In this document: positions 4,510 to 57,348 of the stretch, piece after piece
Layout of the letters: every line of letters starts with the position of its first letter
Position numbering within the stretch: the stretch's first letter is position 1
Source: Clostridia bacterium
Lineage (GTDB): Bacteria; Bacillota; Clostridia; Oscillospirales; UBA644
Assembly (NCBI GenBank): GCA_017427285.1
Contig: JAFRTE010000046.1
Span: 7,401-71,400, forward strand
Reading direction: 5' to 3'
DNA: 64,000 bases
The notes under the pieces: model-generated
Told to the model about the DNA's origin: nothing
Database searches by the model: none
The model's input: only the letters and a program-made list of their open reading frames with translations
Program-made: the position numbers and the translations under genes

Positions 4510-4524
4510 AAACCGAAGACAAAA

Positions 4525-4547
4525 ACCCGTGATTTCCACGGGTTTTT
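4525..4547. terminator. bidirectional terminator
   Basis: Stem ACCCGTG / CACGGGT, loop ATTTC, with an A-run before and TTTTT after. Confidence 0.7.
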
Positions 4548-4564
4548 GATGCTTTTATTATCGT

Positions 4565-5131: not shown

Positions 5132-5145
5132 GTCCCTATGTACCG

Positions 5146-5169
5146 GAGCAGGTTTTCCTGCTCATTTTT
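5146..5169 (+). terminator. rho-independent terminator
   Basis: Stem GAGCAGG / CCTGCTC, loop TTTT, followed by ATTTTTG. Confidence 0.7.
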
Positions 5170-5362
5170 GATTATTCTCATTCTTCAGTTTCTTCTCCGT
5201 CGTCACCATAGCGGACCTTGAGCGGCTCGCAGGAGATTTATTCCGCCTAAACGCCCTGACGGGTGTCCTCCGAAAAGCGTATCAGCGATTCTTGAGTTTC
5301 CTCTGAATAAAACTGTCACTGCAGAAATGCTTTTATATTTCGGTATTTTTTCGCGCTTACTA

Positions 5363-5391
5363 TTGACAAACCGTTATGGATTATGTATAAT
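5363..5391 (+). promoter_or_regulatory. sigma-A type promoter of paralog P3
   Basis: TTGACA (5363-5368), 17-nt spacer, TATAAT (5386-5391). It overlaps the track ORF start at 5383, which is therefore rejected. Confidence 0.75.
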
Positions 5392-5421
5392 ATGGAAAAT
5401 TTATTCAAAAAGGAGCGAAAC

Positions 5422-30818: not shown

Positions 30819-30857
30819 TTTCAACCTCCGCAATTATCAATAATGTAAGTTTATGTT

Positions 30858-35177: not shown

Positions 35178-35374
35178 GAAAATCTCCTCGCTTTTTTTAT
35201 ATCGGATGTAATAACTGTTCTGCTGTATATGTATACAGATACTTTCCATATTTTACTATATATTTCGCGATATGTCAATAGGAAAATTCATTTTTTGTGA
35301 ATATTATTGACATTTTATCAAATCAGGTGTAAAATAGTACATAATAATCAAATGAATCGGAGAGAAAAAACAAT

Positions 35375-40705: not shown

Positions 40706-42124
40706 TCAGCCGAAAATCTCCTCCGCAGTAGTTTCCATATTAACAACGTATTTTACTCTGTTCTGTTCGTCTGCATCCGCATATGCGTCAAGAGCTTCCC
40801 TCATCGTTCTGCTGCTGTTCATATTGATGTAAACGTCCGTACATGCTTCGTGTCTGTAATTGTAAAGTACGGTTTTATACATATCCACAAAGTTGTAAAC
40901 GTCTCTGTCGTCAAAGAAATACTGCTTTCTCAGATAATCGATAATATCTTCTTCATTTTCATATCCGGGGAGCGGTTCGTATATCGCGTTGAGCAATACT
41001 GCGGACATAGCGGGGTCTTTTGCGCAAAGAGACGGGATTGCTGTTGAAAATCTCGTTGTTGTTATCGTCGAGCCGGTGTTTGCAACGCTTCCGTTAGGAC
41101 CGTGCGGGAACGGAACTACGCCGAAATTATCCATGTTGAATACTATCGAGTTGTCTGTTCCGCAAAGGTCTGTGCCGTTCATCAGGGTGAGGACCGATTT
41201 TCCGTCAAGAAATGCCTGCAGCATATTCGTCCAGTTATTGTTCAGGTCGATATTGACGTATGTGGAATACTCGCCGAAAGTCCAGTTCCATGCAGTCTGC
41301 ATAGCTTCAAACGTGATGGGGGAGTGGAGACTGAGCTGGAACTCGCCCTTGTCGTCTTTAATAATAACGGGTTCGCCGTTTGTTGTATGCATCGTTCTGA
41401 AAAGCCAGTGGATAGTTGTCTGAAGCGCCTTTACCTCGTCGCCTGCATCGTTTATATGATTGTATATGGGCATAAGCTCTTCAAGTTTGCTCCACGTCCA
41501 CTCGTCGCGCTCAACAAACTCTCTCGGGTCTGTCTGGCTCAGACGGCTGATGATCGTTTCGTTAACAACCATTGCTCCGTCGATCGAACGGTATTTCAGC
41601 AATGGCCATGCGGCCGGAATAACGCCGAAAAGACCTCCGTCCCAGCACAGCGGTTTAAGGTCTTCCTTCGTTCCCCATTTATCCGCTTTTGTATAATCGA
41701 TAATATCACCGAGATAAGTAAAGTCGTATAAATATCCCGCTCTTGCAAGATTTGCTATCGTGCTTGATTCAGACTGAGCGGCATCGTAAAGAATAAGTCC
41801 GGCGATAGAAGAGGACGTTATCAGGTCGGAAAGTCCCTGTCCCGAAGTGTTGAGTTTTATAACAACATTGTAAGTATCCTCAACGTCCTTCAGACGTCTT
41901 GAGGCAAGATCGGCAAATTCGGTGTTTACTACGTAACCGAAGTATTCTTCGCCCGTTGAATGCTCCTCGTTTCTCTGAACAAAAACGAACTCCGCGCCGC
42001 GGTAGTCGATACCCGTGATCTCCGTTGAATAATCGGGTATTATTTCCTGCTCCGCCTGCTGTCCGCACGAACAGAGAGCAAAAACGATAAAGAATACAAT
42101 AGCCATGGAAATAATCTTTTTCAT
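40706..42124 (-). CDS. SBP-like lipoprotein paralog P9 (divergent)
   Basis: MKKIISMAIVFFIVFALCSCGQ, then EIIPDY. FGVIPAAWPLL, DPREFVERDEWTWSKLEE, FGVVPFPHGPNGS. TTGACA-N17-TATAAT promoter upstream on the minus strand. Confidence 0.8.
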   Translation of the reverse strand: MKKIISMAIVFFIVFALCSCGQQAEQEIIPDYSTEITGIDYRGAEFVFVQRNEEHSTGEEYFGYVVNTEFADLASRRLKDVEDTYNVVIKLNTSGQGLSDLITSSSIAGLILYDAAQSESSTIANLARAGYLYDFTYLGDIIDYTKADKWGTKEDLKPLCWDGGLFGVIPAAWPLLKYRSIDGAMVVNETIISRLSQTDPREFVERDEWTWSKLEELMPIYNHINDAGDEVKALQTTIHWLFRTMHTTNGEPVIIKDDKGEFQLSLHSPITFEAMQTAWNWTFGEYSTYVNIDLNNNWTNMLQAFLDGKSVLTLMNGTDLCGTDNSIVFNMDNFGVVPFPHGPNGSVANTGSTITTTRFSTAIPSLCAKDPAMSAVLLNAIYEPLPGYENEEDIIDYLRKQYFFDDRDVYNFVDMYKTVLYNYRHEACTDVYINMNSSRTMREALDAYADADEQNRVKYVVNMETTAEEIFG

Positions 42125-42819: not shown

Positions 42820-44004
42820 ATGATTTATGCAGACAATGCAGCAACCACCAAAATGAGTGCAGCTGCGGTTAAAACTATGATATCGCTTGCCGAAGAGGCG
42901 TGGGGCAATCCTTCAAGCCTTTATTCTCACGGACAGCAGGCAAAAGAGGTCCTCGAAAAGGCGAGAGCCGATATAGCCGCCGTTATCGGCGCGGAGCCGA
43001 GAGAGATCTATTTCACTTCGGGCGGTAGCGAAGCGGATAATCAGGCGATAATATCTGCCGCGGCAGAGGGACGAAAGAAAGGAAAAATGCATATCGTTTC
43101 CTCCGCTTTTGAGCACCATGCCGTTTTGCACACGCTCGAAAAGCTGAGAAAGGAAGGGTTTGAGATAACTCTTCTGGACGTTCATACAAACGGACTTATC
43201 ATTCCTGCGGAAGCCGAAAAAGCTATACGCGAAGACACCTGCCTTGTTACCGTTATGTATGCAAACAATGAGATAGGCACAATTCAGCCCATAAAGGAAT
43301 TGGGCGAGATATGCAGAAAAAGAAACGTAACGTTTCATGTAGATGCGGTTCAGGCGGTGGGTAATATCCCCGTAAATGTCGTGAGCGACAATATAGATAT
43401 GCTTTCCGCATCGGCACATAAGTTTCACGGACCGAAAGGAACAGGTTTTCTGTATGCAAAGAAAGGGATACGCCTGACAAATCTCATAGAAGGCGGCGCT
43501 CAGGAGCGCGGAAAACGCGCAGGAACCGAAAATGTTCCGTCAATCGCCGCGATGGCGGAGGCTCTGAGAGAAGAAAACGCTAAAATGGGAAAAAAAGCCG
43601 CGTATCTCACGAAAATACGTGATAAAATCATAAACGGTCTTTCAGAAATACCGCATTCCGCGTTGAACGGAGATTTGCAGAAACGTCTTCCGGGCAACGT
43701 AAACTTCTGTTTTGAGGGTATCGAAGGCGAGTCTTTGCTGCTTCTTCTCGATGACAGAGGGATCTGCGCGTCGTCCGGCTCTGCATGCACGTCGGGTTCG
43801 CTCGATCCGAGCCATGTTCTTCTCGCTATAGGCAGAGTACACGATGTGGCTCACGGTTCTCTGCGGCTGAGCATCGGAGAAGACATTACGGACGGTGACG
43901 CGGATTATATTATAAAATCGGTAAAAGAAGTAGTTGAATATTTAAGAGGATTTTCTCCGATCTGGAGAGACCTTATTAACGGAAAGAAAGAGTTTATTTT
44001 ATAA
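42820..44004 (+). CDS. nifS: cysteine desulfurase
   Basis: PLP lysine in SASAHKFHGPKG, active-site SSGSACTSG, 394 aa. Confidence 0.95.
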   Translation: MIYADNAATTKMSAAAVKTMISLAEEAWGNPSSLYSHGQQAKEVLEKARADIAAVIGAEPREIYFTSGGSEADNQAIISAAAEGRKKGKMHIVSSAFEHHAVLHTLEKLRKEGFEITLLDVHTNGLIIPAEAEKAIREDTCLVTVMYANNEIGTIQPIKELGEICRKRNVTFHVDAVQAVGNIPVNVVSDNIDMLSASAHKFHGPKGTGFLYAKKGIRLTNLIEGGAQERGKRAGTENVPSIAAMAEALREENAKMGKKAAYLTKIRDKIINGLSEIPHSALNGDLQKRLPGNVNFCFEGIEGESLLLLLDDRGICASSGSACTSGSLDPSHVLLAIGRVHDVAHGSLRLSIGEDITDGDADYIIKSVKEVVEYLRGFSPIWRDLINGKKEFIL

Positions 44005-44016
44005 GGAGGCATAAAA

Positions 44017-44400
44017 ATGGCTTTATACAGCGAAAAAGTAATGGATCATTTCCGCAATCCCCGCAACGTCGGCATTATAGAGGACGCAAACGGAATAGGC
44101 GAGGTAGGCAACGCAAAATGCGGCGATATCATGAAAATGTATCTTAAAATAGAAGACGGTATAGTCAAAGACGTAAAGTTTGAAACTTTCGGATGCGGCA
44201 GCGCGATAGCTTCAAGCTCGATGGCAACCGAAATGATAAAAGGCAAACCTGTAAGCGAAGTAAAACAGCTTACAAACAAAGCGGTCGCGGAAGCGCTCGA
44301 CGGACTTCCCGACTACAAAATGCACTGCAGCGTTCTTGCGGAAGAAGCGATCAAGCTGGCCCTTGAGGACTATCAGAAAAGAACAGGCGAAGAAATTTGA
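44017..44400 (+). CDS. nifU: Fe-S cluster assembly scaffold protein
   Basis: GNAKCGD, FGCGSAIASSS, HCSVLAEEA (the three conserved Cys of IscU/NifU-N). Confidence 0.95.
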   Translation: MALYSEKVMDHFRNPRNVGIIEDANGIGEVGNAKCGDIMKMYLKIEDGIVKDVKFETFGCGSAIASSSMATEMIKGKPVSEVKQLTNKAVAEALDGLPDYKMHCSVLAEEAIKLALEDYQKRTGEEI

Positions 44401-44411
44401 AATTTTTGTGA

Positions 44412-44445
44412 ACCTATTGACATAGTAGGTAAATGATGCTATAAT
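44412..44445 (+). promoter_or_regulatory. promoter of the sulfur amino-acid operon with a copy of the ACCTATTGAC half-site
   Basis: ACCTATTGAC (44412-44421) is identical to the right arm core of the 42729-42762 palindrome. TTGACA (44417-44422), 17-nt spacer containing TAGGT, TATAAT (44440-44445). Confidence 0.75.
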
Positions 44446-44476
44446 GTCCGCAATCAGAAAAAAGGAGGCGCAAAAG

Positions 44477-44602
44477 ATGATCGGCTATACGACTTTAAAC
44501 GGAAATATCTTCATGTGTTGTCGAATGCTATGCTCCCGGGATCCTTCTTCGGAAGGGGCGTTCGATTGCCTGCAACTGCGCCTCGATAATATACGATGTT
44601 GA
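44477..44602 (+). CDS. candidate regulatory leader peptide, Cys/Met-rich (41 codons)
   Basis: AGGAGG (44463-44468), 8 nt, then ATG. Peptide MIGYTTLNGNIFMCCRMLCSRDPSSEGAFDCLQLRLDNIRC has 5 Cys and 3 Met, with MCCRMLC clustered. It lies in the roughly 250-nt leader of metY-cysK-cysE. Whether it is coding or regulatory is unproven. Confidence 0.4.
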   Translation: MIGYTTLNGNIFMCCRMLCSRDPSSEGAFDCLQLRLDNIRC

Positions 44603-44704
44603 CTTGAAAATTCCTCATTGTATTCCGACTGCCCGGGAGCTTAAAATAAGTTGCCGGGCATTTACTGTATCAAAAATAAGAAAGAAAGCAAAAGGAGATT
44701 AAAA

Positions 44705-45985
44705 ATGAGTAATTATAGATTTGAAACTTTACAGCTTCATGTAGGTCAGGAAAATGCGGATCCCGCAACCGATGCGCGGGCTGTCCCCATATATCAGACG
44801 ACTTCGTATGTTTTTCATAACAGCAAACACGCCGCGGACCGTTTCGGACTTGCGGATTCGGGCAACATTTACGGCAGACTTACAAACTCCACTCAGGAAG
44901 TTCTCGAAAAGAGAGTTGCGGCGCTCGAAGGCGGAAGCGCGGCGCTTGCGCTTGCATCCGGCGCGGCAGCCATAACCTATACGATTGAAGCGCTTGCGGC
45001 AAACGGCGGACATATCGTAGCGCAGAAGACCATTTACGGCGGAAGCTACAACCTTCTTGCACATACTCTTCCGCTGTACGGCATAAAAACAACGTTTGTA
45101 AACATACACGATCTCAAAGAGGTCGAAGACGCGATAACAAAAGACACACGCGCGATTTTCCTTGAAACGCTCGGCAATCCCAACAGCGATATCCCCGATA
45201 TAGACAGCGTTTCTCAGATCGCGCATACACACGGACTTCCCGTAGTTATCGACAATACCTTCGGCACGCCGTATCTTATCAGACCGATCGAGCACGGCGC
45301 GGATATCGTCGTACATTCCGCAACAAAATTCATAGGAGGACACGGCACAACTCTCGGCGGGATAATCGTGGAATCGGGAAAATTCAACTGGAAAGCAAGC
45401 GGAAAATACTCCAATATCGCTGCTCCTAATCCGAGTTATCACGGAGTATCTTTTTACGACGCGGTAGGGCCCGCCGCATTTGTTACGTATATCCGCGCGA
45501 TACTTTTGCGCGATACGGGAGCGACGATCTCTCCGTTTAATGCTTTTCTGCTTCTTCAGGGCGTTGAAACTCTTTCTCTCCGTCTTGAACGTCATGCCGA
45601 AAACACGAAAAAAGTCGTTGAATTTCTGAAAAACCATCCTAAGGTTGAGAAAGTAAACCATCCTTCTCTTCCCGCTCATCCCGACCATGCGCTTTATGAA
45701 AGGTATTTCCCCAACGGAGGCGGTTCGATTTTCACTTTCGATATAAAGGGCGGCCGCGAAGAGGCGTGGAAGTTTATAGACAACCTTAAGATCTTCTCTC
45801 TTCTTGCGAATGTCGCAGACGTAAAAAGTCTTGTTATACATCCTGCGTCAACAACGCATTCACAGCTTTCAAAAGAAGAGCTTGACGAACAGAACATACA
45901 TGAAAATACGATCAGACTGTCAATAGGCACGGAACATATCGACGATATCATCGCCGATCTCGAAAACGGCTTCAACGCCATATGA
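44705..45985 (+). CDS. metY: O-acetylhomoserine sulfhydrylase (PLP-dependent Cys/Met metabolism family)
   Basis: ATG at 44705 follows [31 protein letters not shown] and [10 protein letters not shown] (PLP lysine) are typical MetY/CysD. Confidence 0.9.
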
Positions 45986-46007
45986 CCGTCAAACGGAGGT
46001 ATGAAAA

Positions 46008-46940
46008 ATGTCTAATATATATAAAGGAATAACCGAACTTATCGGCAAAACACCGCTTGTAGAAATAGCAAATATAGAAAATAAACTCGAACTCGGCGCA
46101 AAAATACTTGTAAAACTTGAATATTTCAACCCCGCAGGAAGCGTAAAGGATCGAATTGCAAAGGCGATGATAGAAGACGCCGAAAACAGAGGGCTTCTTA
46201 AGAGCGGCTCGGTTATTATCGAGCCAACTTCGGGAAACACCGGAATAGGTCTTGCCGCTATCGGAGCGTCGAAAGGATACAGGGTAATTCTTACTATGCC
46301 AGAAACAATGAGCGTTGAAAGAAGAAATATCCTTAAAGCTTACGGAGCAGAGGTAGTTTTAACCGAGGGCGCGAAAGGCATGAAAGGGGCAATACAGAAA
46401 GCGGAAGAGCTTGCAAAGGAAATTGAAAACAGCTTTATTCCCGGTCAGTTTGTAAATCCCGCAAATCCCGCAATTCACAAAGCGACGACCGGCCCCGAAA
46501 TCTGGAACGATACCGACGGAGCCGCAGACTTTTTCATCGCGGGAGTAGGCACGGGCGGCACATTGACCGGAGCGGGGGAGTATCTGAAAGAAAAGAATCC
46601 CGATATCCGTATAATCGCCGTTGAACCCGAAGATTCTCCCGTTCTTTCCGAAGGAAGATCCGGCGCGCATAAAATCCAGGGTATAGGCGCGGGTTTCGTC
46701 CCCGATGTCCTTAATACGAAAATCTACGATGAGATAATAAGAGTTGCCAATCAGGACGCCTTCGACACTTCTAAACTTCTCGCCAAAAACGAAGGGATAT
46801 CAGTCGGTATTTCGTCCGGCGCCGCACTTTTTGCGGCAATTTCAGTAGCAAAACGTCCCGAAAACAGAGGTAAAACCGTAGTTGTGCTTTTGCCGGACAG
46901 CGGAGACAGATATTATTCCACCGCGCTTTTTTCGGACTGA
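46008..46940 (+). CDS. cysK: cysteine synthase A (O-acetylserine sulfhydrylase)
   Basis: [16 protein letters not shown] (PLP lysine), [22 protein letters not shown]. Confidence 0.95.
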
Positions 46941-46979
46941 TTTCAAATTGACCTACTGCTTGTTTCGGGGGTGAAGACC

Positions 46980-47858
46980 ATGTATTCTGTCGGTAAAATT
47001 TTGCGTGAGCTTGACGGCATTACGGTAAAATCGGATCTGTCCGATGGTAATTCCGCCCGCGCTCTGCCCGATACAGAGAAGATATGCGGGATAATTAACG
47101 ATACTCTTTCCTTGTTATTCCCCGGGTATTTCGGAGCTGCCGACGGAGGTACGCGCGAAGCCGTCGCTGAAAGAGCAGTTTCCTGTCTGTCTGAACAGAT
47201 AGATGCGGTCTTTGATTCCGAAAAAAGATTATCCGGCAGGTGCGGCGTGGAAACAGCGTGGAAATTTCTTGAAAAGCTTCCGAAACTGAAAGAAATACTT
47301 CTTACGGATATTGAAGCGCTTTATAACGGAGACCCTGCGGCTAAAAACCGCGAGGAAGTGCTGATCTGCTATCCCGGTTTTTTCGCCGTTGCCGTATACA
47401 GGATCGCTCATGAACTGTTTTTAATGGGCGTTCCCGTGATCCCGAGGATAATGACCGAATACGCTCACGGCAAAACGGGGATAGATATCCATCCCGGAGC
47501 GGAAATAGGCGACCATTTTTTCATCGACCACGGCACGGGAATAGTTATTGGCGAAACGACCGTTATCGGCAGCAACGTCAAGCTATATCAGGGAGTAACT
47601 CTCGGAGCAAGAAGCTTTGAGCATGACAAAGACGGAAATCCCGTAAAAAACCTGAAAAGGCATCCCAATATTGGAAACAACGTTATTATTTACGCAAACG
47701 CAACCATACTCGGAGGCAACACTTTTATCGGGGATAACTGCATAATAGGCGCAAGCACCTGGATCGTTCAGTCCGTCCCAGAAAACAGCACCGTTCTGTA
47801 TTCGTCCAACACCGAAAAAATACTTCAGCTGTGGGGCGATAACGGTTCGGGTATTTAA
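46980..47858 (+). CDS. cysE: serine O-acetyltransferase (long form)
   Basis: Hexapeptide-repeat region DIHPGAEIGDHFFIDHGTGIVIGETTVIGSNVKLYQGVTLG. ATG at 46980 follows GGGGGTG. The alternative GTG is at 46971. Confidence 0.85.
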   Translation: MYSVGKILRELDGITVKSDLSDGNSARALPDTEKICGIINDTLSLLFPGYFGAADGGTREAVAERAVSCLSEQIDAVFDSEKRLSGRCGVETAWKFLEKLPKLKEILLTDIEALYNGDPAAKNREEVLICYPGFFAVAVYRIAHELFLMGVPVIPRIMTEYAHGKTGIDIHPGAEIGDHFFIDHGTGIVIGETTVIGSNVKLYQGVTLGARSFEHDKDGNPVKNLKRHPNIGNNVIIYANATILGGNTFIGDNCIIGASTWIVQSVPENSTVLYSSNTEKILQLWGDNGSGI

Positions 47859-50292: not shown

Positions 50293-50560
50293 AAAAACAA
50301 ATCCTCTTGACAGACCCGTAAAGGCTTATCGCGTTCTGACTGTTTTCTTATCCGAAATCCGAAAAAAACAGTCAAACGCACAAGTCAGTATTATATAACA
50401 AAAATTACGGATTGTCAATAGTAAAAAAGGAGCGTTTGCAATAATTTTTTGGAACAAAAACGGTTATCGCCGTCGTTCGTGGCGGTTTTGCTTCCACTGC
50501 TGCATATTGTTCTTGACAAAACGCGGCGGATAAAGCATAATAAAAGTAAGCGTGCGCTGT

Positions 50561-50820
50561 TTATTCTTCCAAAGCTCCTGCGGCTCTCAGATTTTCAAGC
50601 GCCTTTTTAACGTCGCTTGCAATCAGCTCTTCGTTAGCGTCAAAGCGGGATTTCAAAGCGGCGACAATTTCCTTTTCCGAGATTTCCTTTTCAAGCAGCT
50701 GAACTATCGCTCCGAAAGTGGCGTTCCCTGGATTATTCCGTGAAATTCCGTATCTCCTACGGGAACAAGCAGAGTTTTTCCGTTTGCTTCATGAACGATA
50801 AAATCCGATTTTAATTTCAT
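50561..50820 (-). pseudogene. PqqD-family (RiPP recognition element-like) protein, frameshifted
   Basis: MKLKSDFIVHEANGKTLLVPVGDTEFHGIIQG then a stop. The next frame continues as NATFGAIVQLLEKEISEKEIVAALKSRFDANEELIASDVKKALENLRAAGALEE. Total length is 260 nt (not divisible by 3), with one base apparently missing near 50720-50735. Confidence 0.6.
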
Positions 50821-50833
50821 TTTTTTCTCCTGA

Positions 50834-51296
50834 AATAATACTTTTTTTATCAACAATTATGCAGGGACTTTTAAAGCGGAAATCAACTCGCTGTATCCGG
50901 ATGTCCACAAATACTGCGCAGAAGATCAGACTTCGGAGTTTGCGGACTATACCGTAACTGTAACACAGTCAGATATAGACGCAGAGCGCGAGTATTCGTT
51001 ACGCGAAAGTCAGATCGAAGGCATTTCCGCGCCCGAATATCCGGACAGTTATCTTGAAAAGCTTGCCGTTCTCAGAAAAATGTCGGACGAGCTGATCAGC
51101 AGAAACACGCTTCTTTTTCACGGCTCCGCAGTTTCTCTTGACGGCGACGGATATCTCTTGACGGCAAAATCGGGTACAGGCAAATCAACGCATACGCGAC
51201 TTTGGCGCGAATATTTCGGAGACCGCGCAGTTATTGTAAATGACGATGAACCGTTTCTGCAAATATCCGACGAAGGAGTGATCGTATTCGGCTCTC
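50834..51296 (+). pseudogene. HPr-kinase-like (HprK-related) P-loop protein fragment, truncated at both ends
   Basis: LLFHGSAVSLDGDGYLLTAKSGTGKSTHTRLWREYFGDRAVIVNDDEPFL matches the HprK-like family that accompanies PqqD proteins. There is no in-frame start codon between the TGA at 50831 and the Met at 51080. Family similarity ends around 51296. Confidence 0.55.
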
Positions 51297-51800
51297 CTTG
51301 CGGCGGAAACTCAGCAATCCGTTCCCGAAAGTCCCGAACAGCAGATATCCGACAGTCCGTCTTCCGATTCTTCTCAGGCCGAAGAGACCGAGCCGGACAA
51401 TACGCAGCAGCAAAACGGCGATACTCCTTTGCAAACCGCAGATACAACGTATCAGGGCTCTGAGATCGAGCTGCCCGAGGTAGATATTTTCGATTGGCTT
51501 TCATGGTTTTCAGATTATGCTTCCTCCGATGACAGCGGCGTAAACGGAAACGAACAGTCTTCTTCTGCCCAAAACGGGACCGACACTCAAAACACTCCGC
51601 CCGACGGCTCATCCGAAAATCACTTTGATGAATCATCCGGTAATCAGAACGGTTCTGATACCGAAACGCCCGAGGAAAACGCGGCGCCGCAGACCCCCGA
51701 ACAGAGTATAGATTCCGATCCGACGTCATCACCCGCTCCCGATCAGGACGGTATTTGTTTCGACGAAAACGGCGATATTATTCTGCCCGAAGTGCCGTAA
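51282..51800 (+). pseudogene. 3' fragment of an acidic, S/T/P/Q-rich low-complexity protein fused out of frame to the kinase fragment
   Basis: The frame is open from 51282 (…AETQQSVPESPEQQISDSPSSDSSQAEETEPDN…ICFDENGDIILPEVP*). The first Met, at 51429, lacks an SD. Confidence 0.35.
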
Positions 51801-51818
51801 AAATGTTTAATGTATTTA

Positions 51819-51849
51819 AGACAGACAGATTTCGACTGTCTGTCTTTTT
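51819..51849 (+). terminator. rho-independent terminator
   Basis: 10-bp stem AGACAGACAG / CTGTCTGTCT, 7-nt loop, followed by TTTTT. Confidence 0.8.
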
Positions 51850-51875
51850 ATTGTTAAAAAACGGGGAAGCGGGGC

Positions 51876-51904
51876 TTGATTTTTGCGTGTTTATATAGTA
51901 TAAT
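51876..51904 (+). promoter_or_regulatory. promoter of the three-gene TerB/ATPase/helicase operon
   Basis: TTGATT (51876-51881), 17-nt spacer, TATAAT (51899-51904). Confidence 0.7.
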
Positions 51905-51942
51905 ATATAATAGTGGTTTATCTGTAAAGGGGATGGCGGACA

Positions 51943-53757
51943 ATGAGGATATCGGATCTTACCGCATACGCTGCGGAAAAATACCGTATTGAAGAAATTC
52001 ACAAATGGTCCGACTTCCCGGGCTTTTCCGTGCTCTGCCATCCCGAAACCGGTAAATGGGTTGCGCTTCTGATGCGCCAGTGGAACTCAGATCTCGGCGA
52101 AGAGATCGAACGCTGCGATATAAAATGCGGTCACGGCGTTCCTATGCGCCCGTATATCACGTCTCCTTTTCGCATGCAGGGCGACAGATGGCAGGGTATC
52201 GCTTTTAACGACGAGACCGAAGAAACCGTAGTTTTTTCTCTTCTGGACAGAGCAATTTCAGAGGGTTCTCCGAGCGGTTACAAAATTGTGCTTGCATCTC
52301 AGCTTCCCGTAAAGGATAACGCATACAGGGAAACACCGCTACCGTTTTCTTCGGGGACAAATCGGTCCGCTCAGACGAGAGCTCCCGAGCGCATTCGCGA
52401 AATGCGCCGACTTTATGAATACGGCAGAGAGTCCGTTGAGTCAAGAGCTGAGAATTTTTACAATCAGGCGGTCTTCATGCGCGATTATGAAGACGATTAT
52501 CCGTGGTCAGGAGATTTTGTCTGCTATTTCCCAACTTATCACGACCTTACCACAAATCAGCTCCGCGGTTATTTTTCATGGCGCAAAAATATAAGAAAAG
52601 GCGATTTTAAGCCGATCTCCGCCTCTGCTGCTTATATTTATATATACGAGCTTTTAAACGGTGTCGGTGCAGATTCTCCGACAGACGCGATAGATAAGCT
52701 GAAAGCGTTTGACGAGGGATTTATAGGCGCTGGTTTCGGCAACGACAGAATGCGGCAAAATATCCGCCGCTGGATGTTTGAGCTTGCAATAATAAAAGCT
52801 TTGCCTATCGATTTTACCGCAAAAACAGCCGATCCGGAAGTTCAGAAAAGAGATATTTCTCTTTCCGTACTTAAAACACCCGAAGAGTTTTCCGATAACG
52901 AAATATTTGACGCTCTCTGCATCCTTTCCGGTAAAAAAACGTGGGATTCTCCCGTCATAAAAGCCGATTCCGCCCGCGGAATGCGCCTGTTTGCCGAGGC
53001 GTGGAAGGCGATCCGTTCATACAGGCGCGAAGATAAGCCATTTTTTCAGCTCTGTTTCGGCAAAAAAGTCTCACGTCGCTGGCATCCTCTCGCAAATGCC
53101 GTTTATTATACCGGCAAAATGTCGTCAGACGCCGATTATCTTCTTAATCCCTGCCGAAATTACCGTTGCCGTAACGGTATATGGACCGTGACCGCATACG
53201 ACAAACAGTTTTTTAACCTTGAGCTTCTGCGCGCCTTTATCAGACTGACGGACGCTCTTTTGCGCCGATATCTGAAAACGGGAAAGTATCTGAAAGAAAA
53301 TCCCGAAGACGAGTGGGCAGCTCCGTTTATTCTTGCCGTTATCGAAGCCGATAAAAATGCGGCTGCCGAAGCGTCAAAACCGAAGATCACGATAGATCTT
53401 TCAGAACTTGACAAAATACGGGCCGATTCCGATATTACAAGAGACAGTCTTTTGACGGAGGATGAAACGGACGATTTCGAAGAACTCCCCGAACCTCTTA
53501 GGGAGGTTGAAAAGACGGATATCCCTCTTGACGAAACACAGATAAAACTTATTCGTTTGCTGCTTTCGGGCGGCGACGTCTCGGGATTGCTTAAATCAGC
53601 GCACCTTATGCCGTCCGTTGCGGCAGATTCGATCAACGAGGCCCTTTTTGACGATATAGGAGATACGGTTTTGCTGTGTGAAAACGGTATTCTCGCATTG
53701 GTTGACGATTATATAGACGATTTAGAGCGTTTGCTCGGAGGAAACAGTAATGGATGA
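51943..53757 (+). CDS. sngA: TerB-N / TerB-C domain protein with an N-terminal YjbR/MmcQ-like module (Shango SngA-like)
   Basis: Middle region FVCYFPTYHDLTTNQLRGYFSWRKNIRKGDFKPISASAAYIYIYELLNGVG gives the TerB-N signature. C-terminal LDETQIKLIRLLLSG...SINEALFDDIGDTVL is TerB-C-like. The first roughly 110 aa resemble YjbR-type proteins. SD AAAGGGGA. Confidence 0.75.
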   Translation: MRISDLTAYAAEKYRIEEIHKWSDFPGFSVLCHPETGKWVALLMRQWNSDLGEEIERCDIKCGHGVPMRPYITSPFRMQGDRWQGIAFNDETEETVVFSLLDRAISEGSPSGYKIVLASQLPVKDNAYRETPLPFSSGTNRSAQTRAPERIREMRRLYEYGRESVESRAENFYNQAVFMRDYEDDYPWSGDFVCYFPTYHDLTTNQLRGYFSWRKNIRKGDFKPISASAAYIYIYELLNGVGADSPTDAIDKLKAFDEGFIGAGFGNDRMRQNIRRWMFELAIIKALPIDFTAKTADPEVQKRDISLSVLKTPEEFSDNEIFDALCILSGKKTWDSPVIKADSARGMRLFAEAWKAIRSYRREDKPFFQLCFGKKVSRRWHPLANAVYYTGKMSSDADYLLNPCRNYRCRNGIWTVTAYDKQFFNLELLRAFIRLTDALLRRYLKTGKYLKENPEDEWAAPFILAVIEADKNAAAEASKPKITIDLSELDKIRADSDITRDSLLTEDETDDFEELPEPLREVEKTDIPLDETQIKLIRLLLSGGDVSGLLKSAHLMPSVAADSINEALFDDIGDTVLLCENGILALVDDYIDDLERLLGGNSNG

Positions 53758-55078
53758 GCCAAAAAAAGCGCCTAAACGCATTGCGCAAACGGTGATCAAT
53801 TCCTTAAAAGGCGGCGTTGTTCCCAGAATAGGGCTGCCGTATATTACGGTCGGACGCAAAAGCGAAATCGAGGCGCTGCTTCACGACGTCGAAATAATTT
53901 CTGAAGGCGGCGCGTCTTTCCGATTCATTGTCGGACGTTACGGAAGCGGAAAAAGTTTCCTTTTGCAGACTATCCGCAACTACGTTATGGACCGCGGCTT
54001 TATCGTTGCGGACGCCGATCTTTCTCCCGAAAGACGTTTGCAGGGCACAAAAGGACAGGGGCTTGCAACGTACCGTGAGCTTATTTCCAATCTTTCAACG
54101 AAGACAAAGCCCGAGGGAGGCGCGCTGACTCTTGTTTTAGACCGCTGGATAAGCGCTGTTCAGACCGAAGCGGTCGTTGAAACGGGGCTTTCGCCAGACA
54201 GTCCGGCTCTTGCTGAAGCGACAGACAAAAAAATTTTTGCCGTTACAGCGTCTGTCAGCGAGCTTGTTCACGGTTTTGAGTTTGCAAAGCTGCTTTCCGC
54301 ATATTACAGGGCATATATCAACGGCGACGACGAAACAAAGGCGAACGTCGTTAAGTGGTTCCGCGGCGAATATGCTCTTAGAAGCGAAGCGAAAGAGGCG
54401 CTCGGCGTAAATATCATTATTACTGACGACGATTGGTACGACTATCTCAAACTGTTTGCTGCGTTTTTCCGTCTTGCGGGATATACAGGTATGTTTATTA
54501 TGATAGACGAACTTGTAAATATCTATAAAATCCCCAATTCCGTCACAAGACAGTATAATTACGAAAAACTGCTTACCATGTATAACGACACTTTGCAGGG
54601 GAAGGCAAAATATCTCGGCATTCTTATGGGCTCAACCCCTCAGTCGCTCGAAGACAAACGCCGCGGTATTTACAGCTACGAAGCGCTCCGCTCTCGACTT
54701 GCGGAAGGACGTTTTTCCAAACCCGGGTCCCGCGATCTGCTCGCGCCGGTAATACGTCTCGAACCTCTTACGGCGGAGGAAATGCTCGTTCTTTGCGAAA
54801 AACTATCCGAAATGCATGCGGATTTATATGCTTATAAACGTTCGGTCACGACCGATGACCTCGTCGGCTTTATCAAGATCGAGTATTCCCGCATAGGCGC
54901 AGATAGCAACATTACCCCGCGCGAGGTTATAAGAGATTTTATAGAACTTCTTGATTTGCTTTATCAGCATACCGAAATGAGCATTTCGTCGCTCCTTGAA
55001 TCGGACGAATTCAGTTATGCTAAATCCGAAGCCGTTTCGGACGATGCCGATGCGGGGTATGTGGAGTTTACCGTATGA
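53750..55078 (+). CDS. sngB: P-loop ATPase of the DUF2791 / BrxD-like type (Shango SngB-like)
   Basis: Walker A VGRYGSGKSF, Walker B MFIMIDELV. N-terminal VVPRIGLPYITVGRKSEIEAL is typical of DUF2791. The start overlaps the upstream stop by 8 nt (ATGGATGA). Confidence 0.75.
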   Translation: MDEPKKAPKRIAQTVINSLKGGVVPRIGLPYITVGRKSEIEALLHDVEIISEGGASFRFIVGRYGSGKSFLLQTIRNYVMDRGFIVADADLSPERRLQGTKGQGLATYRELISNLSTKTKPEGGALTLVLDRWISAVQTEAVVETGLSPDSPALAEATDKKIFAVTASVSELVHGFEFAKLLSAYYRAYINGDDETKANVVKWFRGEYALRSEAKEALGVNIIITDDDWYDYLKLFAAFFRLAGYTGMFIMIDELVNIYKIPNSVTRQYNYEKLLTMYNDTLQGKAKYLGILMGSTPQSLEDKRRGIYSYEALRSRLAEGRFSKPGSRDLLAPVIRLEPLTAEEMLVLCEKLSEMHADLYAYKRSVTTDDLVGFIKIEYSRIGADSNITPREVIRDFIELLDLLYQHTEMSISSLLESDEFSYAKSEAVSDDADAGYVEFTV

Positions 55079-57312
55079 ACGTATTTGAACGCTACTCACC
55101 GTTTATTCAGGACTATATCTACCGTTCCGGCTGGCAAAGCCTGCGCGCCGTACAGAATGCCGCGGGTGACGCGATTTTCGGGACCGATGAAAACGTGCTT
55201 CTTACCGCCTCCACGGCTTCCGGAAAAACAGAAGCGGCGTTTTTCCCAATACTTACTCTTCTTGACGAAAGCCCGTCCGCAACTGTCGGCGTATTGTATA
55301 TTGCGCCTCTGAAAGCGCTTATCAACGACCAGTTCGGACGGCTTACCGAATTATGCGAGGAAGAGGGTATATCCGTAACACGCTGGCACGGAGATTCCAA
55401 TCAGACGGCGAAAAGAAAGCTCATAAAAAAGCCGTCCGGTATCCTGCAGATAACCCCAGAATCCCTCGAATCACTTCTTATAAACAAGCATATGGAGATC
55501 CCGTCCCTTTTCGGCGATCTGCGCTTTATAGTTATAGACGAAATTCATTCTCTTCTGCGCGCGGACAGGGGTCTGCAGACCTTCTGCCTTATTGAAAGAC
55601 TGTGTTCCCTTGCGGGCTGCGATCCGCGCAGGATCGGGCTTTCCGCAACTATCGGCAATCCCTCCCTCGCAGGCAAATTTCTTTCGGCCGGCAGCAACAG
55701 AAAAACGGTTATTCCGCAGTTTGACGGCGGAAAAGAGGTCTGGCGGCTTTCAATGGAGCATTTTTACAATACCCCTCCGCAGGCGGATGAAGGTAAAGCC
55801 GGAAATGCGCTTACACCGCCTCTTGAACAGCCGACCGATAAGGCTCCGCTTGCCGCCGACCCCGGTATCGGATATATTTTTGAGCATACAAAGGGTAAAA
55901 AGTGCCTTGTTTTTACAAATTCCCGCGAGGAATGCGAAGCTGTATGCCAGCAGCTAAGACAGTATTGCGAGGCAAATCACGAGCCGGACAGATTTTTGAT
56001 CCACCACGGCAATCTTTCCGCCTCCTACCGCGAAAGCGCGGAAGAGGAGATGAAAGACGACGACTCGTATATGTCGGTCTGCGCTACCGCAACGCTTGAG
56101 CTCGGTATCGACGTAGGACGTCTCGAACGCGCGTTTCAGATCGACGCGCCGTTTACCGTTTCGGGATTTTTACAGCGGATGGGCAGAACGGGCCGCAGGG
56201 GAGACCCGTCGGAAATGTGGTTTGTTATGCGCGAGGACCATCAGGAGGCACGCGCAATGCTGCCCGACAGTATCCCTTGGTATCTTATTCAGGGCATCGC
56301 CCTCGTTCAGCTTTATATAGAAGAACGTTTCGTCGAGCCGCCCCGCACGGAAAGAATGCCTTTCAGTCTTCTTTATCATCAAACTATGAGCACGCTTGCC
56401 TCTCACGGCGAAATGACTCCCGCAGAGCTTGCGTCCCGCGTTTTAACGCTTTCCGCTTTTTGTTATATAGGCAAAGAAGATTATCAGACGCTTCTGAGAC
56501 ATCTTATTGAAACAGACCATATAAACCGCACCGAAAACGGAGGACTTATTCTCGGCATCACCGGAGAAAGAATTGTAAACAACTATAAATTTTACGCTGT
56601 TTTCCGCGAAAACGTGGAATATACCGTGCGTTCCGGCTCCGAACAGCTCGGCACTATCGTAAAACCGCCGCCGATTGGCGACAAGATCGCAATTGCGGGC
56701 CGCGTCTGGGTGGTCGAAGATGTCGATCACAAACGGCGCGAGGTTTTCTGTACGCTTGTTAAAGGCAATATCCCCGCATATTTCGGCGACGTTGCCGGAG
56801 ATATAAACACACGCATCCTCGAGCGGATGTATGCCGTTTTAAGAGAAGATAAGCAGTATCCTTATCTGATGTCTCATGCCGTCAGCAGACTTGCCGACGC
56901 GAGAGAAACTTTCCGCAAATCGCTCATGTCCGAGCGTCCGCTCGTTCACCTCGGCGGCAATATGTGGGCGCTCTTTCCGTGGGTAGGCACATACGCGTTT
57001 CTTGCGACCGAGCGTTTCCTCAAAATCCGCTGCGGAAAAAAACTCGGGCTTAAAGGACTTCAGTCTTCGCGCCCGTATTATATGCAGTTTACGATGCAGG
57101 CAAGCGAGGAAGAGTTTTACGAAACCGTATGCAAAGAAGCTCAGACGGAATTTGACCCGCTCGAAATTGTTTATCCGAACGAGATCCCCGTATTTGAAAA
57201 ATATGACGAATATGTCCCTCCCTCTCTTGTCCGTAAAGGTTTTGCTCACGGCATTCTCGATATTGAGGATATGAAAAAGCATATCCTCGTCTGGCAAAAA
57301 TTCATCACATAA
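55075..57312 (+). CDS. sngC: superfamily-2 DExH helicase, Lhr-like (Shango SngC-like)
   Basis: Motif I ASTASGKTEAA, motif II VIDEIHSL, motif III SATIGN, motif V TATLELGIDVG, motif VI QRMGRTGRR, plus about 350 aa of C-terminal extension. ATGA start/stop overlap. Confidence 0.85.
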   Translation: MNVFERYSPFIQDYIYRSGWQSLRAVQNAAGDAIFGTDENVLLTASTASGKTEAAFFPILTLLDESPSATVGVLYIAPLKALINDQFGRLTELCEEEGISVTRWHGDSNQTAKRKLIKKPSGILQITPESLESLLINKHMEIPSLFGDLRFIVIDEIHSLLRADRGLQTFCLIERLCSLAGCDPRRIGLSATIGNPSLAGKFLSAGSNRKTVIPQFDGGKEVWRLSMEHFYNTPPQADEGKAGNALTPPLEQPTDKAPLAADPGIGYIFEHTKGKKCLVFTNSREECEAVCQQLRQYCEANHEPDRFLIHHGNLSASYRESAEEEMKDDDSYMSVCATATLELGIDVGRLERAFQIDAPFTVSGFLQRMGRTGRRGDPSEMWFVMREDHQEARAMLPDSIPWYLIQGIALVQLYIEERFVEPPRTERMPFSLLYHQTMSTLASHGEMTPAELASRVLTLSAFCYIGKEDYQTLLRHLIETDHINRTENGGLILGITGERIVNNYKFYAVFRENVEYTVRSGSEQLGTIVKPPPIGDKIAIAGRVWVVEDVDHKRREVFCTLVKGNIPAYFGDVAGDINTRILERMYAVLREDKQYPYLMSHAVSRLADARETFRKSLMSERPLVHLGGNMWALFPWVGTYAFLATERFLKIRCGKKLGLKGLQSSRPYYMQFTMQASEEEFYETVCKEAQTEFDPLEIVYPNEIPVFEKYDEYVPPSLVRKGFAHGILDIEDMKKHILVWQKFIT

Positions 57313-57317
57313 AAACA

Positions 57318-57348
57318 GACCATCGGGTCCCCGATGGTCATTTTTTTT
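57318..57348. terminator. bidirectional terminator
   Basis: Stem GACCATCGG / CCGATGGTC, with AAAAA before and TTTTTTTT after. Confidence 0.8.

What the first reader, a model, noticed from the sequence alone, without database searches (positions are those of the whole stretch)
51876..57348. TerB-N/TerB-C protein + DUF2791-type ATPase + DExH helicase operon: a Shango-type anti-phage module with an extra YjbR-like head
Seen in sequence:
- Three genes sit behind one TTGATT-N17-TATAAT promoter, bounded by strong terminators on both sides.
- Their start and stop codons overlap (ATGGATGA and ATGA), which implies stoichiometric co-translation.
- Gene 1 carries the TerB-N signature (YFPTYHDLTTNQLRGYFSWRK...YIYIYELLNG) and a TerB-C-like tail.
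- Gene 2 has Walker A GRYGSGKS and Walker B IMIDE.
- Gene 3 has helicase motifs I, II (DEIH), III, V and VI.

Established knowledge, as I recall it: this triad was flagged by Anantharaman, Iyer and Aravind (2012) as a TerB-linked DNA-processing system. It was later named Shango (SngABC) in the 2022 defence-system screens. The mechanism and trigger remain unknown.

Unusual here: the first roughly 110 aa of the TerB protein look like a YjbR/MmcQ-type module. The operon also sits next to decayed RiPP-like genes, which gives an island-like context.
Basis: partly seen in the sequence, partly recalled or inferred. Interest (0 to 1): 0.8.

Follow-up and report, generated by a model that had tools for sequence, protein, structure and literature searches.

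The report
Shango defence operon with YjbR-headed SngA
This is an intact three-gene Shango (SngABC) anti-phage operon from a gut or rumen Clostridia bacterium whose first protein starts with a small DNA-binding-type (YjbR) domain instead of the membrane anchor seen in other lineages; the variant is real but common and already catalogued, so the locus is largely ordinary.

Summary
Three overlapping + strand genes (51943-53757, 53750-55078, 55075-57312) lie behind TTGATT-N17-TATAAT (51876-51904) and between two strong terminators. They match the PADLOC models SngA (6e-72), SngB (2e-189) and SngC (2e-278), and all the quoted motifs are present.

The "YjbR-like head" is also real:
- A profile of aa 1-140 hits PDB PSPTO_3016 (a PF04237/YjbR member) at 1.5e-11.
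- An AlphaFold model (pLDDT about 93 for aa 1-110) has the four PF04237 structures as its top Foldseek hits.

The head lies outside the SngA family model. In Phaeobacter and Pantoea SngA a strongly hydrophobic N-terminus takes its place (weaker in Bacillus cereus).

The head is not rare or new. It occurs in 175 species-representative genomes, 76/76 times fused to the TerB core and 61/62 times followed by SngB and SngC. The YjbR-TerB fusion is attributed to the 2012 Aravind-lab paper.

Further points:
- The operon is under purifying selection, and SngA evolves 2-3 times faster than SngB/SngC.
- Its context varies across relatives (mobile elements, Card1), but it is syntenic among close relatives.
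- The adjacent "decayed RiPP" stretch is a window-specific insertion of about 1.3 kb.

Verdict: a new member of a known kind, of low to moderate interest.

The parts
50513..50541 (+). Upstream, apparently ancestral copy of the operon promoter (TTGACA-N17-CATAAT, 11 of 12 matches). An insertion now separates it from sngA.
   Evidence: Scan. Window 50293-50545 aligns with the single ArsB-SngA intergenic region of relatives L017 and L018, up to and including their promoter.
50545..51870 (.). Window-specific insertion of about 1.3 kb. It carries a frameshifted PqqD-family gene (minus strand, about 50560-50822), a ScmC/HprK-related kinase fragment (+ strand, about 50880-51463), an acidic low-complexity ORF (51429-51800) and its terminator (51818-51846). 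It is context only and not part of Shango.
   Evidence: The ArsB-SngA gap is 287-311 bp in L017-L020 against 1650 bp here. PqqD PF05402 scores 5e-9 after frameshift repair. ScmC TIGR04249 scores 2.7e-5, which is weak.
51876..51904 (+). Proximal sigma-70-type promoter TTGATT-N17-TATAAT, the one that drives sngABC.
   Evidence: CTTGA and TATAAT are invariant in the window and four relatives at the same distance from the start codon.
51927..51934 (+). Ribosome-binding site AAAGGGGA, 8 nt upstream of the sngA ATG.
   Evidence: Sequence. The A/G-rich block is conserved in relatives.
51943..53757 (+). sngA (604 aa): YjbR-like head, disordered linker, then the TerB-N and TerB-C core.
   Evidence: PADLOC SngA 6e-72. 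Pfam TerB_N and TerB_C. Full-length AF2 model with mean pLDDT 82. An identical protein is in NCBI as a 'TerB N-terminal domain-containing protein' from a Clostridia MAG.
51943..52272 (+). SngA aa 1-110: divergent YjbR/MmcQ (PF04237, DUF419) 'double-wing' domain.
   Evidence: Profile A2 hits PDB 2KFP/3H9X at 1.5e-11, and that protein hits PF04237 at 3e-19. 29 of 42 homologous heads hit YjbR, best 1.4e-5. AF2 pLDDT is about 93. The top four Foldseek hits are 3H9X, 2KFP, 2FKI and 2A1V. The head alone gets no PADLOC SngA hit.
52273..52374 (+). SngA aa 111-144: predicted disordered linker that tethers the head.
   Evidence: pLDDT is below 50 over aa 110-144. This segment has the highest dN/dS in the operon, 0.32.
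52357..53007 (+). SngA TerB_N domain (aa 139-355), with the conserved motifs YFPTYHDL..RGYFSWR and YIYELLN.
   Evidence: PF13208 1.1e-24. Invariant columns are listed.
53344..53727 (+). SngA TerB_C domain (aa 468-595). Its last ~70 aa have a winged-helix-like H-H-H-beta-beta topology.
   Evidence: PF15615 4.6e-19. Secondary structure. Weak Foldseek matches to LysR-type wHTH DNA-binding domains (E 0.3-2, probability above 0.9).
53750..55078 (+). sngB (442 aa): DUF2791/BrxD-like ORC/Cdc6-type AAA+ ATPase. Walker A GRYGSGKS is at 53933-53956 and Walker B IMIDE at 54497-54511.
   Evidence: PADLOC SngB 2e-189 against BrxD 2e-49. PF10923 1e-168. Motifs. The AAA+ ORC/Cdc6 classification of BrxD comes from PMC12839542.
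55075..57312 (+). sngC (745 aa): Lhr/MrfA-like (Ski2-type) DExH SF2 helicase. Motif I is at 55207-55230, DEIH at 55537-55548 and motif VI QRMGRTGRR at 56173-56199.
   Evidence: PADLOC SngC 2e-278 and BrxHI 2e-124. Pfam DEAD and Helicase_C. The closest solved relatives are Lhr 5V9X and 7LHL and MrfA/YprA 6ZNP. Motifs.
57318..57339 (.). Bidirectional intrinsic terminator shared with the convergent FAD-oxidoreductase gene.
   Evidence: 9-bp stem with 6 GC pairs and T-runs on both strands.

Best explanation
**What it is:** a functional Shango (SngABC) anti-phage operon of the soluble, YjbR-headed subtype that is common in gut and rumen Clostridia.

**Shown here**
- The three genes lie in tandem behind a conserved sigma-70-like promoter, and their start and stop codons overlap. 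Co-transcription and translational coupling are inferred from this layout.
- All ATPase and helicase motifs are intact.
- The genes are under purifying selection.

**Inferred mechanism**
1. SngA is the sensor or adaptor. Its TerB-N/TerB-C core docks the other two subunits.
2. Its N-terminal module decides where the complex looks for phage. In Phaeobacter and Pantoea, and less clearly in Bacillus cereus, that module is a hydrophobic, transmembrane-like segment. Here it is a YjbR 'double-wing' domain on a flexible linker of about 35 residues, which probably contacts nucleic acid directly.
3. SngB, an ORC/Cdc6-type AAA+ ATPase paralogous to BrxD, uses ATP to load or activate SngC.
4. SngC, an Lhr/MrfA-like 3'-to-5' DExH helicase paralogous to BrxHI, translocates on phage DNA or its replication intermediates and unwinds them, which blocks phage replication.

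No nuclease domain is detectable in any subunit. Interference is therefore predicted to be helicase-driven or to recruit host factors, not to be direct cleavage.
For: **Family membership**
- The SngA, SngB and SngC models match end to end at 6e-72, 2e-189 and 2e-278.
- Pfam finds TerB_N, TerB_C, BrxC_BrxD, DEAD and Helicase_C.
- The catalytic motifs are intact.

**Function is maintained**
- dN/dS against the syntenic relative L017 is 0.12 for SngA, 0.042 for SngB and 0.055 for SngC. dS (0.47-0.82) is comparable to the flanks at 0.64-0.68.

**The triad behaves as one unit**
- 61 of 62 species-representative loci with enough sequence keep head, core, SngB and SngC collinear.
- Neighbourhoods differ: relaxase plus large serine recombinase in L011/L012, a Card1 nuclease in L014, and unrelated genes elsewhere.

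**SngA looks like the specificity subunit**
- Median identity to the window is 51% for the core and 59% for the head, against 84-85% for SngB and SngC.
- The same pattern holds inside syntenic loci, where the flanks are 77-95% identical.

**The N-terminal module is swapped**
- The head is a YjbR fold.
- It is absent from the PADLOC SngA model.
- Hydrophobic N-termini take its place in Phaeobacter and Pantoea (best 19-residue Kyte-Doolittle mean 2.5 and 1.9). Bacillus cereus is borderline at 1.57. The window SngA reaches only 1.09.

**Roles of the partners**
- SngC's nearest solved relatives are Lhr and MrfA.
- BrxD and BrxHI are described as a tightly linked dyad of an ORC/Cdc6 AAA+ ATPase and a Ski2/Lhr-like helicase, with a proposed loader role (PMC12839542).

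**Anti-phage activity of homologous systems**
- Shown in P. aeruginosa (PMC10250203), which also cites a roughly 10-fold inhibition of two phages by an E. coli system. The E. coli screen itself was read as the 2022 bioRxiv preprint.
Against: - No experiment exists for this subtype or this host. The validated systems are proteobacterial, and their effects were modest (10- to 100-fold).
- In this lineage the operon sits among sulfur-metabolism and transport genes, at the same site in at least five species. No other defence gene was found in the surveyed part of the window (29-64 kb).
- DNA binding by YjbR domains is itself only inferred from structure.
- The head has a net acidic charge, 12 K+R against 18 D+E. 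It also carries invariant residues absent from PSPTO_3016 (C58 and C62).
- The Pfam YjbR model does not hit the window's own head.
- The loader-and-helicase division of labour and the absence of a nuclease are inferences from homology.
- SngB has no solved relative.
Confidence: 0.8

Rival explanations
1. The triad is a housekeeping stress or DNA-repair module and not an immune system. An Lhr/MrfA-type repair helicase would work with its AAA+ partner and a TerB-N/C scaffold, as in the original 'Ter-linked DNA-processing' idea.
For: - SngC's closest solved relatives are the repair helicases Lhr and MrfA. The best NCBIfam hit is the ligase-associated DNA-damage-response DEXH helicase, though far below its cut-off.
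- The locus is syntenic among metabolic genes in five species, with dS equal to the flanks.
- No neighbouring defence genes were found.
Against: - Homologous SngABC systems reduce phage plating.
- The triad is patchy: 175 of 185,579 species representatives carry this subtype.
- In other lineages it sits next to relaxase and recombinase genes and a Card1 nuclease, and it occurs on plasmids.
- SngA evolves 2-3 times faster than its partners, which is atypical for a repair scaffold.
Confidence: 0.1
2. The locus is Shango, but the YjbR head is not a phage-DNA sensor. It could bind the operon's own promoter as an autoregulator, or it could be a protein- or ligand-binding CyaY-like module.
For: - The head is net acidic.
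- C58 and C62 are invariant and H33 nearly so, and the two cysteines are missing from PSPTO_3016, which hints at a different ligand or metal.
- 12 related loci carry a dedicated HxlR regulator directly downstream, which shows that regulation is a recurring need.
- DNA binding by YjbR is only a structural prediction.
Against: - Nine basic positions are conserved in the head: K13, K21, K38, R45, R57, K61, R69, R77 and K/R82.
- YjbR domains are repeatedly fused to nucleases, helicases and EVE modified-base readers.
- The head occupies the position held by a localisation module (a hydrophobic N-terminus) in other SngA proteins. That position fits a targeting role better than a regulatory one.
Confidence: 0.2
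3. The genes are a leftover BrxD-BrxHI pair from a degraded type 2 BREX (Pgl) system.
For: - SngB hits BrxD (2e-49) and SngC hits BrxHI (2e-124).
- Pfam names the ATPase family BrxC_BrxD.
Against: - The Sng models score far higher than the Brx models (628 against 167 bits, and 924 against 414 bits).
- NCBIfam BREX_BrxD scores 168 bits against a cut-off of 350.
- No PglX, PglZ, BrxC or PglW domains appear in the neighbours scanned.
- The pair is always preceded by the TerB-N/C gene in 61 of 62 loci.
Confidence: 0.02

Closest known systems
Shango (SngABC) from P. aeruginosa PA14 cDHS1 and E. coli (Johnson et al. 2023, PMC10250203; Millman et al. 2022)
   Same: - The three-gene order is the same: a TerB-N/TerB-C protein, a DUF2791 ATPase and a DExH helicase.
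- The genes are collinear and overlapping.
- All three PADLOC family models match end to end.
   Different: - SngA here begins with a soluble YjbR-fold domain plus a disordered linker, and it has no TM-grade hydrophobic segment.
- The SngA proteins I could inspect begin with hydrophobic segments: clearly in Phaeobacter and Pantoea, borderline in Bacillus cereus.
- I could not fetch the PA14 or E. coli SngA sequences themselves.
- The host is an uncultured Clostridia bacterium, and there is no phenotype.
YjbR/MmcQ family, PF04237 (DUF419): PSPTO_3016 (3H9X/2KFP), E. coli YjbR (2FKI), DR2400 (2A1V)
   Same: - The fold is the same alpha-beta-alpha 'double-wing' / CyaY-like fold (TM 0.78 to 3H9X).
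- The profile-to-sequence match is E 1.5e-11 over aa 1-105.
   Different: - This head is a fused N-terminal module and not a stand-alone protein of about 120 aa.
- It is too divergent for the Pfam model to detect in this protein.
- It carries an invariant C-D-x-K-C motif (C58, C62) that PSPTO_3016 lacks.
YjbR + TerB-N + TerB-C architecture (Anantharaman, Iyer & Aravind 2012, as cited by Bell et al. 2020; L. acidophilus TDB29877.1 preprint 2021)
   Same: The domain order and sizes are identical: TerB-N at 141-360 and TerB-C at 467-599 in TDB29877.1, against 139-355 and 468-595 here.
   Different: - Of the three sources, neither of the two I could read places the architecture under the Shango name.
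- Neither compares it with the hydrophobic N-terminal variants.
- The 2012 paper itself could not be read.
BrxD-BrxHI dyad of type 2 BREX / Pgl (PMC12839542)
   Same: It is a paralogous pair of an ORC/Cdc6-type AAA+ ATPase and a Ski2/Lhr-like helicase, tightly linked and probably working as loader and helicase.
   Different: - There is no methyltransferase, PglZ, BrxC or PglW.
- The pair is combined with a TerB-N/C protein instead.

Membership tests
Shango (SngABC) | [quoted passage not shown] | tested here: met
   PADLOC SngA scores 6.1e-72. The core alone scores 7e-70 over profile positions 66-527 of 528. PF13208 and PF15615 are both above their gathering scores.
Shango (SngABC) | SngB: a DUF2791-type ATPase that fits the SngB model better than BrxD, with Walker A and B intact | tested here: met
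   SngB scores 628 bits against 167 for BrxD. GRYGSGKS is at aa 62 and IMIDE at aa 250.
Shango (SngABC) | SngC: a DExH SF2 helicase that fits the SngC model better than BrxHI, with the helicase motifs intact | tested here: met
   SngC scores 924 bits against 414 for BrxHI. Motifs I, II (DEIH), III, V and VI are present.
Shango (SngABC) | Three genes adjacent, on the same strand, in the order A-B-C | tested here: met
   The overlaps are 8 nt and 4 nt. The same order holds in 61 of 62 related loci.
Shango (SngABC) | Confers resistance to phage infection | not testable with these tools
   Only homologous proteobacterial systems have been tested.
YjbR/MmcQ (PF04237, DUF419) | Sequence match to the Pfam YjbR model at the gathering score | tested here: not met
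   The window head gets no YjbR hit even at E<=10. 29 of 42 homologous heads hit it at E<=10 (best 1.4e-5); their bit scores were not listed against the 30.1-bit gathering score.
YjbR/MmcQ (PF04237, DUF419) | Homology to a bona fide member, detectable by profile search | tested here: met
   Head profile A2 hits PSPTO_3016 at E 1.5e-11 over aa 1-105. PSPTO_3016 hits PF04237 at 3e-19.
YjbR/MmcQ (PF04237, DUF419) | The 'double-wing' / CyaY-like alpha-beta-alpha fold | tested here: met
   The AF2 head model has pLDDT of about 93 for aa 1-110. Foldseek ranks 1-4 are 3H9X, 2KFP, 2FKI and 2A1V, with target TM up to 0.78.
YjbR/MmcQ (PF04237, DUF419) | Binds DNA | not testable with these tools
   This is only a structural inference in the literature. 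Basic residues are conserved but the net charge is acidic.
TerB domain proper (PF05099) | Match to the TerB tellurite-resistance domain | tested here: not met
   At E<=0.01 only TerB_N and TerB_C are found in SngA. 'TerB protein' is therefore a loose label here.
BREX type 2 (Pgl) | PglX methyltransferase, PglZ, BrxC and PglW alongside BrxD and BrxHI | tested here: not met
   Most large ORFs in window 29-64 kb were scanned and none shows such domains. NCBIfam BrxD scores 168 bits against a cut-off of 350.

The most novel reading that the evidence does not exclude
The N-terminus of SngA may be Shango's interchangeable 'where to look' module. In roughly 175 species a YjbR double-wing domain on a flexible tether replaces the hydrophobic N-terminus seen in other lineages. 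That would let the same SngB-SngC motor be triggered by direct recognition of phage DNA (possibly modified or structured DNA) instead of by events at the membrane. If so, membrane surveillance is not intrinsic to Shango, and the unknown trigger becomes testable by head swaps and head-DNA binding assays.
Probability: 0.3. Interest if true: 0.55.

Novelty: new member of a known kind. Interest (0 to 1): 0.3.

Why it matters
Shango is widespread, and a 2026 survey lists it among the systems DefenseFinder identifies in rumen microbiomes. Its trigger and mechanism are still unknown.

This locus adds no new system. It does bring three observations together:
- SngA's N-terminus is modular, either a YjbR domain or a hydrophobic, transmembrane-like segment.
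- SngA evolves 2-3 times faster than the strongly conserved SngB-SngC pair.
- The soluble subtype has no membrane anchor at all.

Together these mark SngA, and its head in particular, as the likely sensing part. They also argue against an obligatory membrane-surveillance model, and they suggest simple domain-swap experiments.

The practical value is modest. Standard tools already annotate the locus, and the fusion has already been catalogued.

Tried and rejected
- **Pfam on the head alone.** Only a spurious Bromelain-inhibitor hit came back (E 0.05). The YjbR link needed a family profile and a structure model.
- **The first PADLOC alignment.** It began at aa 47, which suggested the SngA model might include the head. 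Scanning head and core separately showed it does not.
- **E. coli Shango by DNA similarity.** No match in 5,426 E. coli genomes at blastn sensitivity. I used plasmid-borne proteobacterial and Bacillus systems instead.
- **SngA in phage genomes.** No match.
- **The head against viral structures (BFVD).** Nothing at E<=0.001 and TM no higher than 0.38. No phage mimic or MotA-like link could be shown.
- **SngB against PDB sequences.** No solved relative.
- **Stand-alone head proteins.** The short hits in the exhaustive search look like truncated or frameshifted fragments, not genuine stand-alone proteins.
- **Zn site at C32, H33, C58 and C62.** I had no access to model coordinates, and C32 is only 36/42 conserved. 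This stays unexplained.
- **The Anantharaman 2012 paper.** It could not be opened, so its description of the fusion is taken second-hand from Bell et al. 2020.
- **tRNA or integration-site signal.** No tRNA genes were found in the window.

Full report

Yes. The ORF listing gives three + strand ORFs at 51943-53757 (604 aa), 53750-55078 (442 aa) and 55075-57312 (745 aa). The junctions read ATGGATGA and ATGA, exactly as described.

The consensus scan finds TTGATT-N17-TATAAT at 51876-51904. It also finds an 11-bp-stem terminator at 51818-51846 and a 9-bp-stem (6 GC) bidirectional terminator at 57318-57339.

Promoter-like sites are not enriched in the region as a whole (13 against 8.7 +/- 3.0). The real support for this promoter is conservation: CTTGA and TATAAT are invariant, at the same distance from the ATG, in four species-level relatives.

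Every quoted motif is present at the stated protein.

**2. What is it?**

All three proteins match the PADLOC Shango models almost end to end: SngA 6e-72, SngB 2e-189 and SngC 2e-278. The paralogous BREX models score far lower: BrxD 167 bits against 628 for SngB, and BrxHI 414 bits against 924 for SngC.

Pfam gives TerB_N (aa 139-355), TerB_C (aa 468-595), BrxC_BrxD (1e-168), and DEAD plus Helicase_C. There is no hit to the TerB domain proper.

SngC's nearest solved relatives are the Lhr helicases 5V9X and 7LHL and MrfA/YprA 6ZNP. SngB has no solved relative.

The exact SngA sequence is already in NCBI as a 'TerB N-terminal domain-containing protein' from a Clostridia MAG.

The link between TerB and phage defence was hypothesised by Anantharaman et al. 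2012. The system was named Shango by Millman et al. 2022 and validated in P. aeruginosa by Johnson et al. 2023, with modest 10- to 100-fold protection. A 2025 preprint still states that it is unclear how TerB-domain defence proteins confer protection.

**3. The YjbR-like head**

Pfam does not detect it in the window protein. The evidence comes from other tests:
- An alignment of 42 homologous heads (A2) hits PDB 2KFP/3H9X (PSPTO_3016) at E 1.5e-11 over aa 1-105. I confirmed that this protein is a PF04237 YjbR member (3e-19).
- 29 of the 42 heads hit the YjbR model individually, best 1.4e-5.
- An AlphaFold model of aa 1-140 is confident for aa 1-110 (pLDDT about 93), with helix, four strands, helix.
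- Its four best Foldseek PDB matches are exactly the four PF04237/DUF419 structures: 3H9X, 2KFP, YjbR 2FKI and DR2400 2A1V.

The full-length model shows the head joined to the TerB-N core by a disordered linker, aa 110-144.

The head is outside the SngA family model. Alone it gets no PADLOC hit, whereas aa 145-604 carry 235 of the 242 bits.

Bona fide SngA proteins from Phaeobacter (3.5e-102), Pantoea (1.6e-92) and Bacillus cereus (8e-54) show no similarity to the head. They begin with hydrophobic, TM-like segments. The best 19-residue Kyte-Doolittle mean is 2.5 and 1.9 for the first two and a borderline 1.57 for B. cereus, against 1.09 for the window SngA.

**4. Is the head unusual?**

Not within its clade.
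- An exhaustive phmmer search of 1.84 billion cluster representatives finds the head in 224 clusters. It is nearly always at residue 1 of a 600-850 aa protein, and the short hits look like fragments.
- More than 120 clusters at 90% identity cover 100% of SngA.
- A scan of 185,579 species-representative genomes finds 175 carriers. Most are rumen or gut Oscillospiraceae, Lachnospiraceae, Ruminococcaceae and Christensenellales. A few MAGs are labelled Erysipelotrichaceae, Spirochaetales, Fusobacterium, Flexilinea, Thermoguttaceae and Desulfovibrio.
- Among the 80 loci fetched, 76/76 have the TerB core directly after the head. Of the 62 with enough downstream sequence, 61 have the complete collinear SngABC.

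The fusion is also documented. Bell et al. [quoted passage not shown] 2012. A 2021 preprint describes an L. acidophilus protein with a YjbR-like superfamily match, TerB-N at 141-360 and TerB-C at 467-599.

**5. Context and evolution**

The flanks are metabolic genes.
- Upstream: NifU/IscS-like genes, a Cys/Met PLP enzyme, PALP, a hexapeptide transferase, URO-D and an ArsB/CitMHS permease.
- Downstream: an FAD oxidoreductase, a Cthe_2159 protein and an Fe-ADH.

The same arrangement holds in four other species (L017-L020).

In those syntenic loci the flanks are 77-95% identical and SngB and SngC 87-95%. The SngA core is only 58-83% and the head 66-89%.

Against L017, dN/dS is 0.046-0.057 for the flanks, 0.042 for SngB, 0.055 for SngC, 0.12 for both the SngA head and core, and 0.32 for the linker. 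dS is comparable to the flanks. The operon is therefore functional and vertically inherited in this lineage, and SngA is its least constrained part.

In more distant carriers the neighbourhood is unrelated:
- directly after a MobA/MobL relaxase, an HTH protein and a large serine recombinase (L011/L012);
- after a Card1 nuclease (L014);
- among glycoside hydrolases and GNATs (L013).

A clustering of 470 flank ORFs finds only one recurrent neighbour, an HxlR regulator directly downstream in 12 loci. That test is met only within one narrow lineage and not across the family.

**6. The 'decayed RiPP-like genes'**

These are confirmed and refined.
- Relatives have a 287-311 bp ArsB-SngA spacer. The window has 1650 bp.
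- Window 50293-50545 aligns with the relatives' spacer up to and including their promoter. That leaves a strong promoter-like site at 50513-50541 (TTGACA-N17-CATAAT, 11/12). Window 51870-51945 aligns with the promoter-to-ATG part.
- The roughly 1.3 kb between them carries a PqqD-family gene with one frameshift (PF05402 5e-9 after repair), a ScmC/HprK-related kinase fragment (weak, 2.7e-5), an acidic low-complexity ORF and a terminator.

This is a lineage-specific insertion bracketed by two promoter-like copies. It is not evidence of a defence island.

**7. Mechanism**

Inferred from the tandem gene layout, overlapping start and stop codons and a conserved promoter: co-transcription and translational coupling. 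Shown directly: intact catalytic motifs and purifying selection.

Inferred:
- SngA is the sensor or adaptor, and its N-terminal module sets where surveillance happens. Here that module is a tethered YjbR double-wing domain with nine conserved basic positions, which probably contacts nucleic acid. TerB-C ends in a winged-helix-like unit (weak).
- SngB, like its paralogue BrxD, is an ORC/Cdc6-type AAA+ ATPase that may load or activate the helicase.
- SngC is an Lhr/MrfA-like DExH helicase that acts on phage DNA or its replication intermediates.
- No nuclease domain is detected in any subunit.

I put family membership at about 0.95, anti-phage function in the native host at about 0.75-0.8, and this specific mechanism at about 0.3.

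**8. Verdict**

This is a well-formed, already-annotatable Shango operon of a common Clostridia subtype.

What remains of interest is the modular SngA N-terminus and the faster evolution of SngA. These give an experimental handle on Shango's unknown trigger.

Noticed in passing
window 1537-2967, 3079-4509, 5383-6810, 26931-28319 (+); 29412-30833, 30858-32240, 33789-35249, 39255-40658, 40706-42124 (-): Nine paralogous ORFs of 460-486 aa, 24-59% identical to each other. Each has a signal peptide and a lipobox cysteine. The six that were scanned have no Pfam hit at E<=1e-5. They may be divergent solute-binding lipoproteins.
   Followed up: partly
window 50513-50541 and 51876-51904: Two promoter-like copies bracket a window-specific insertion of about 1.3 kb. 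Relatives L017-L020 have a single promoter. The upstream copy (11/12 match to consensus) now points into the insertion.
   Followed up: yes
window ~50560-50822 (-) and ~50880-51463 (+): A PqqD-family peptide-chaperone gene with one frameshift, next to a truncated ScmC/HprK-related kinase fragment. Both look like remnants of a RiPP-type cassette.
   Followed up: yes
SngA aa 32-33 and 58-62 (window 52036-52041 and 52114-52128): C58 and C62 (motif C-D-x-K-C) are invariant in 42/42 heads, H33 in 41/42 and C32 in 36/42. The two invariant cysteines are replaced by valines in PSPTO_3016. A possible metal or redox site remains unexplained.
   Followed up: partly
SngA aa 531-597 (window 53533-53733): The C-terminal part of TerB_C is predicted as H-H-H-beta-beta. 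It weakly matches LysR-type winged-helix DNA-binding domains (E 0.3-2, probability above 0.9), which hints at a second nucleic-acid-binding element in SngA.
   Followed up: partly
L011 4424-15779 and L012 (the same region): In a Ruminococcaceae lineage the YjbR-type Shango operon starts inside the stop region of a large serine recombinase gene. A MobA/MobL relaxase and an HTH protein lie upstream and an HxlR regulator follows. This looks like an integrative mobilisable element carrying Shango.
   Followed up: no
12 of the loci L017-L096, e.g. L057 7548-7958; also L011 15384-15779 and L016 6343-6738: A small HxlR-family wHTH regulator sits directly downstream of sngC (median gap 14 bp) or overlaps its end. 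It is absent from the window.
   Followed up: partly
L004 (Clostridium estertheticum plasmid pCF002-344), SngA annotated at 4388-5989: The annotated SngA (533 aa) starts at the equivalent of M78, inside the YjbR head. tblastn aligns the window protein from residue 1 further upstream, so the start is probably mis-annotated or a frameshift has cut the head.
   Followed up: no
L014 8714-9886: A Card1-type (CARF-nuclease) gene lies immediately upstream of Shango in an Oscillospiraceae lineage. It is the only clear defence-gene neighbour seen.
   Followed up: no
window 42820-47858: A sulfur and Fe-S cluster of genes lies upstream of the locus: IscS-like aminotransferase, NifU, Cys/Met PLP enzyme, PALP (cysteine-synthase-like) and a hexapeptide transferase. 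In relative L008 an Rrf2 regulator precedes it.
   Followed up: no
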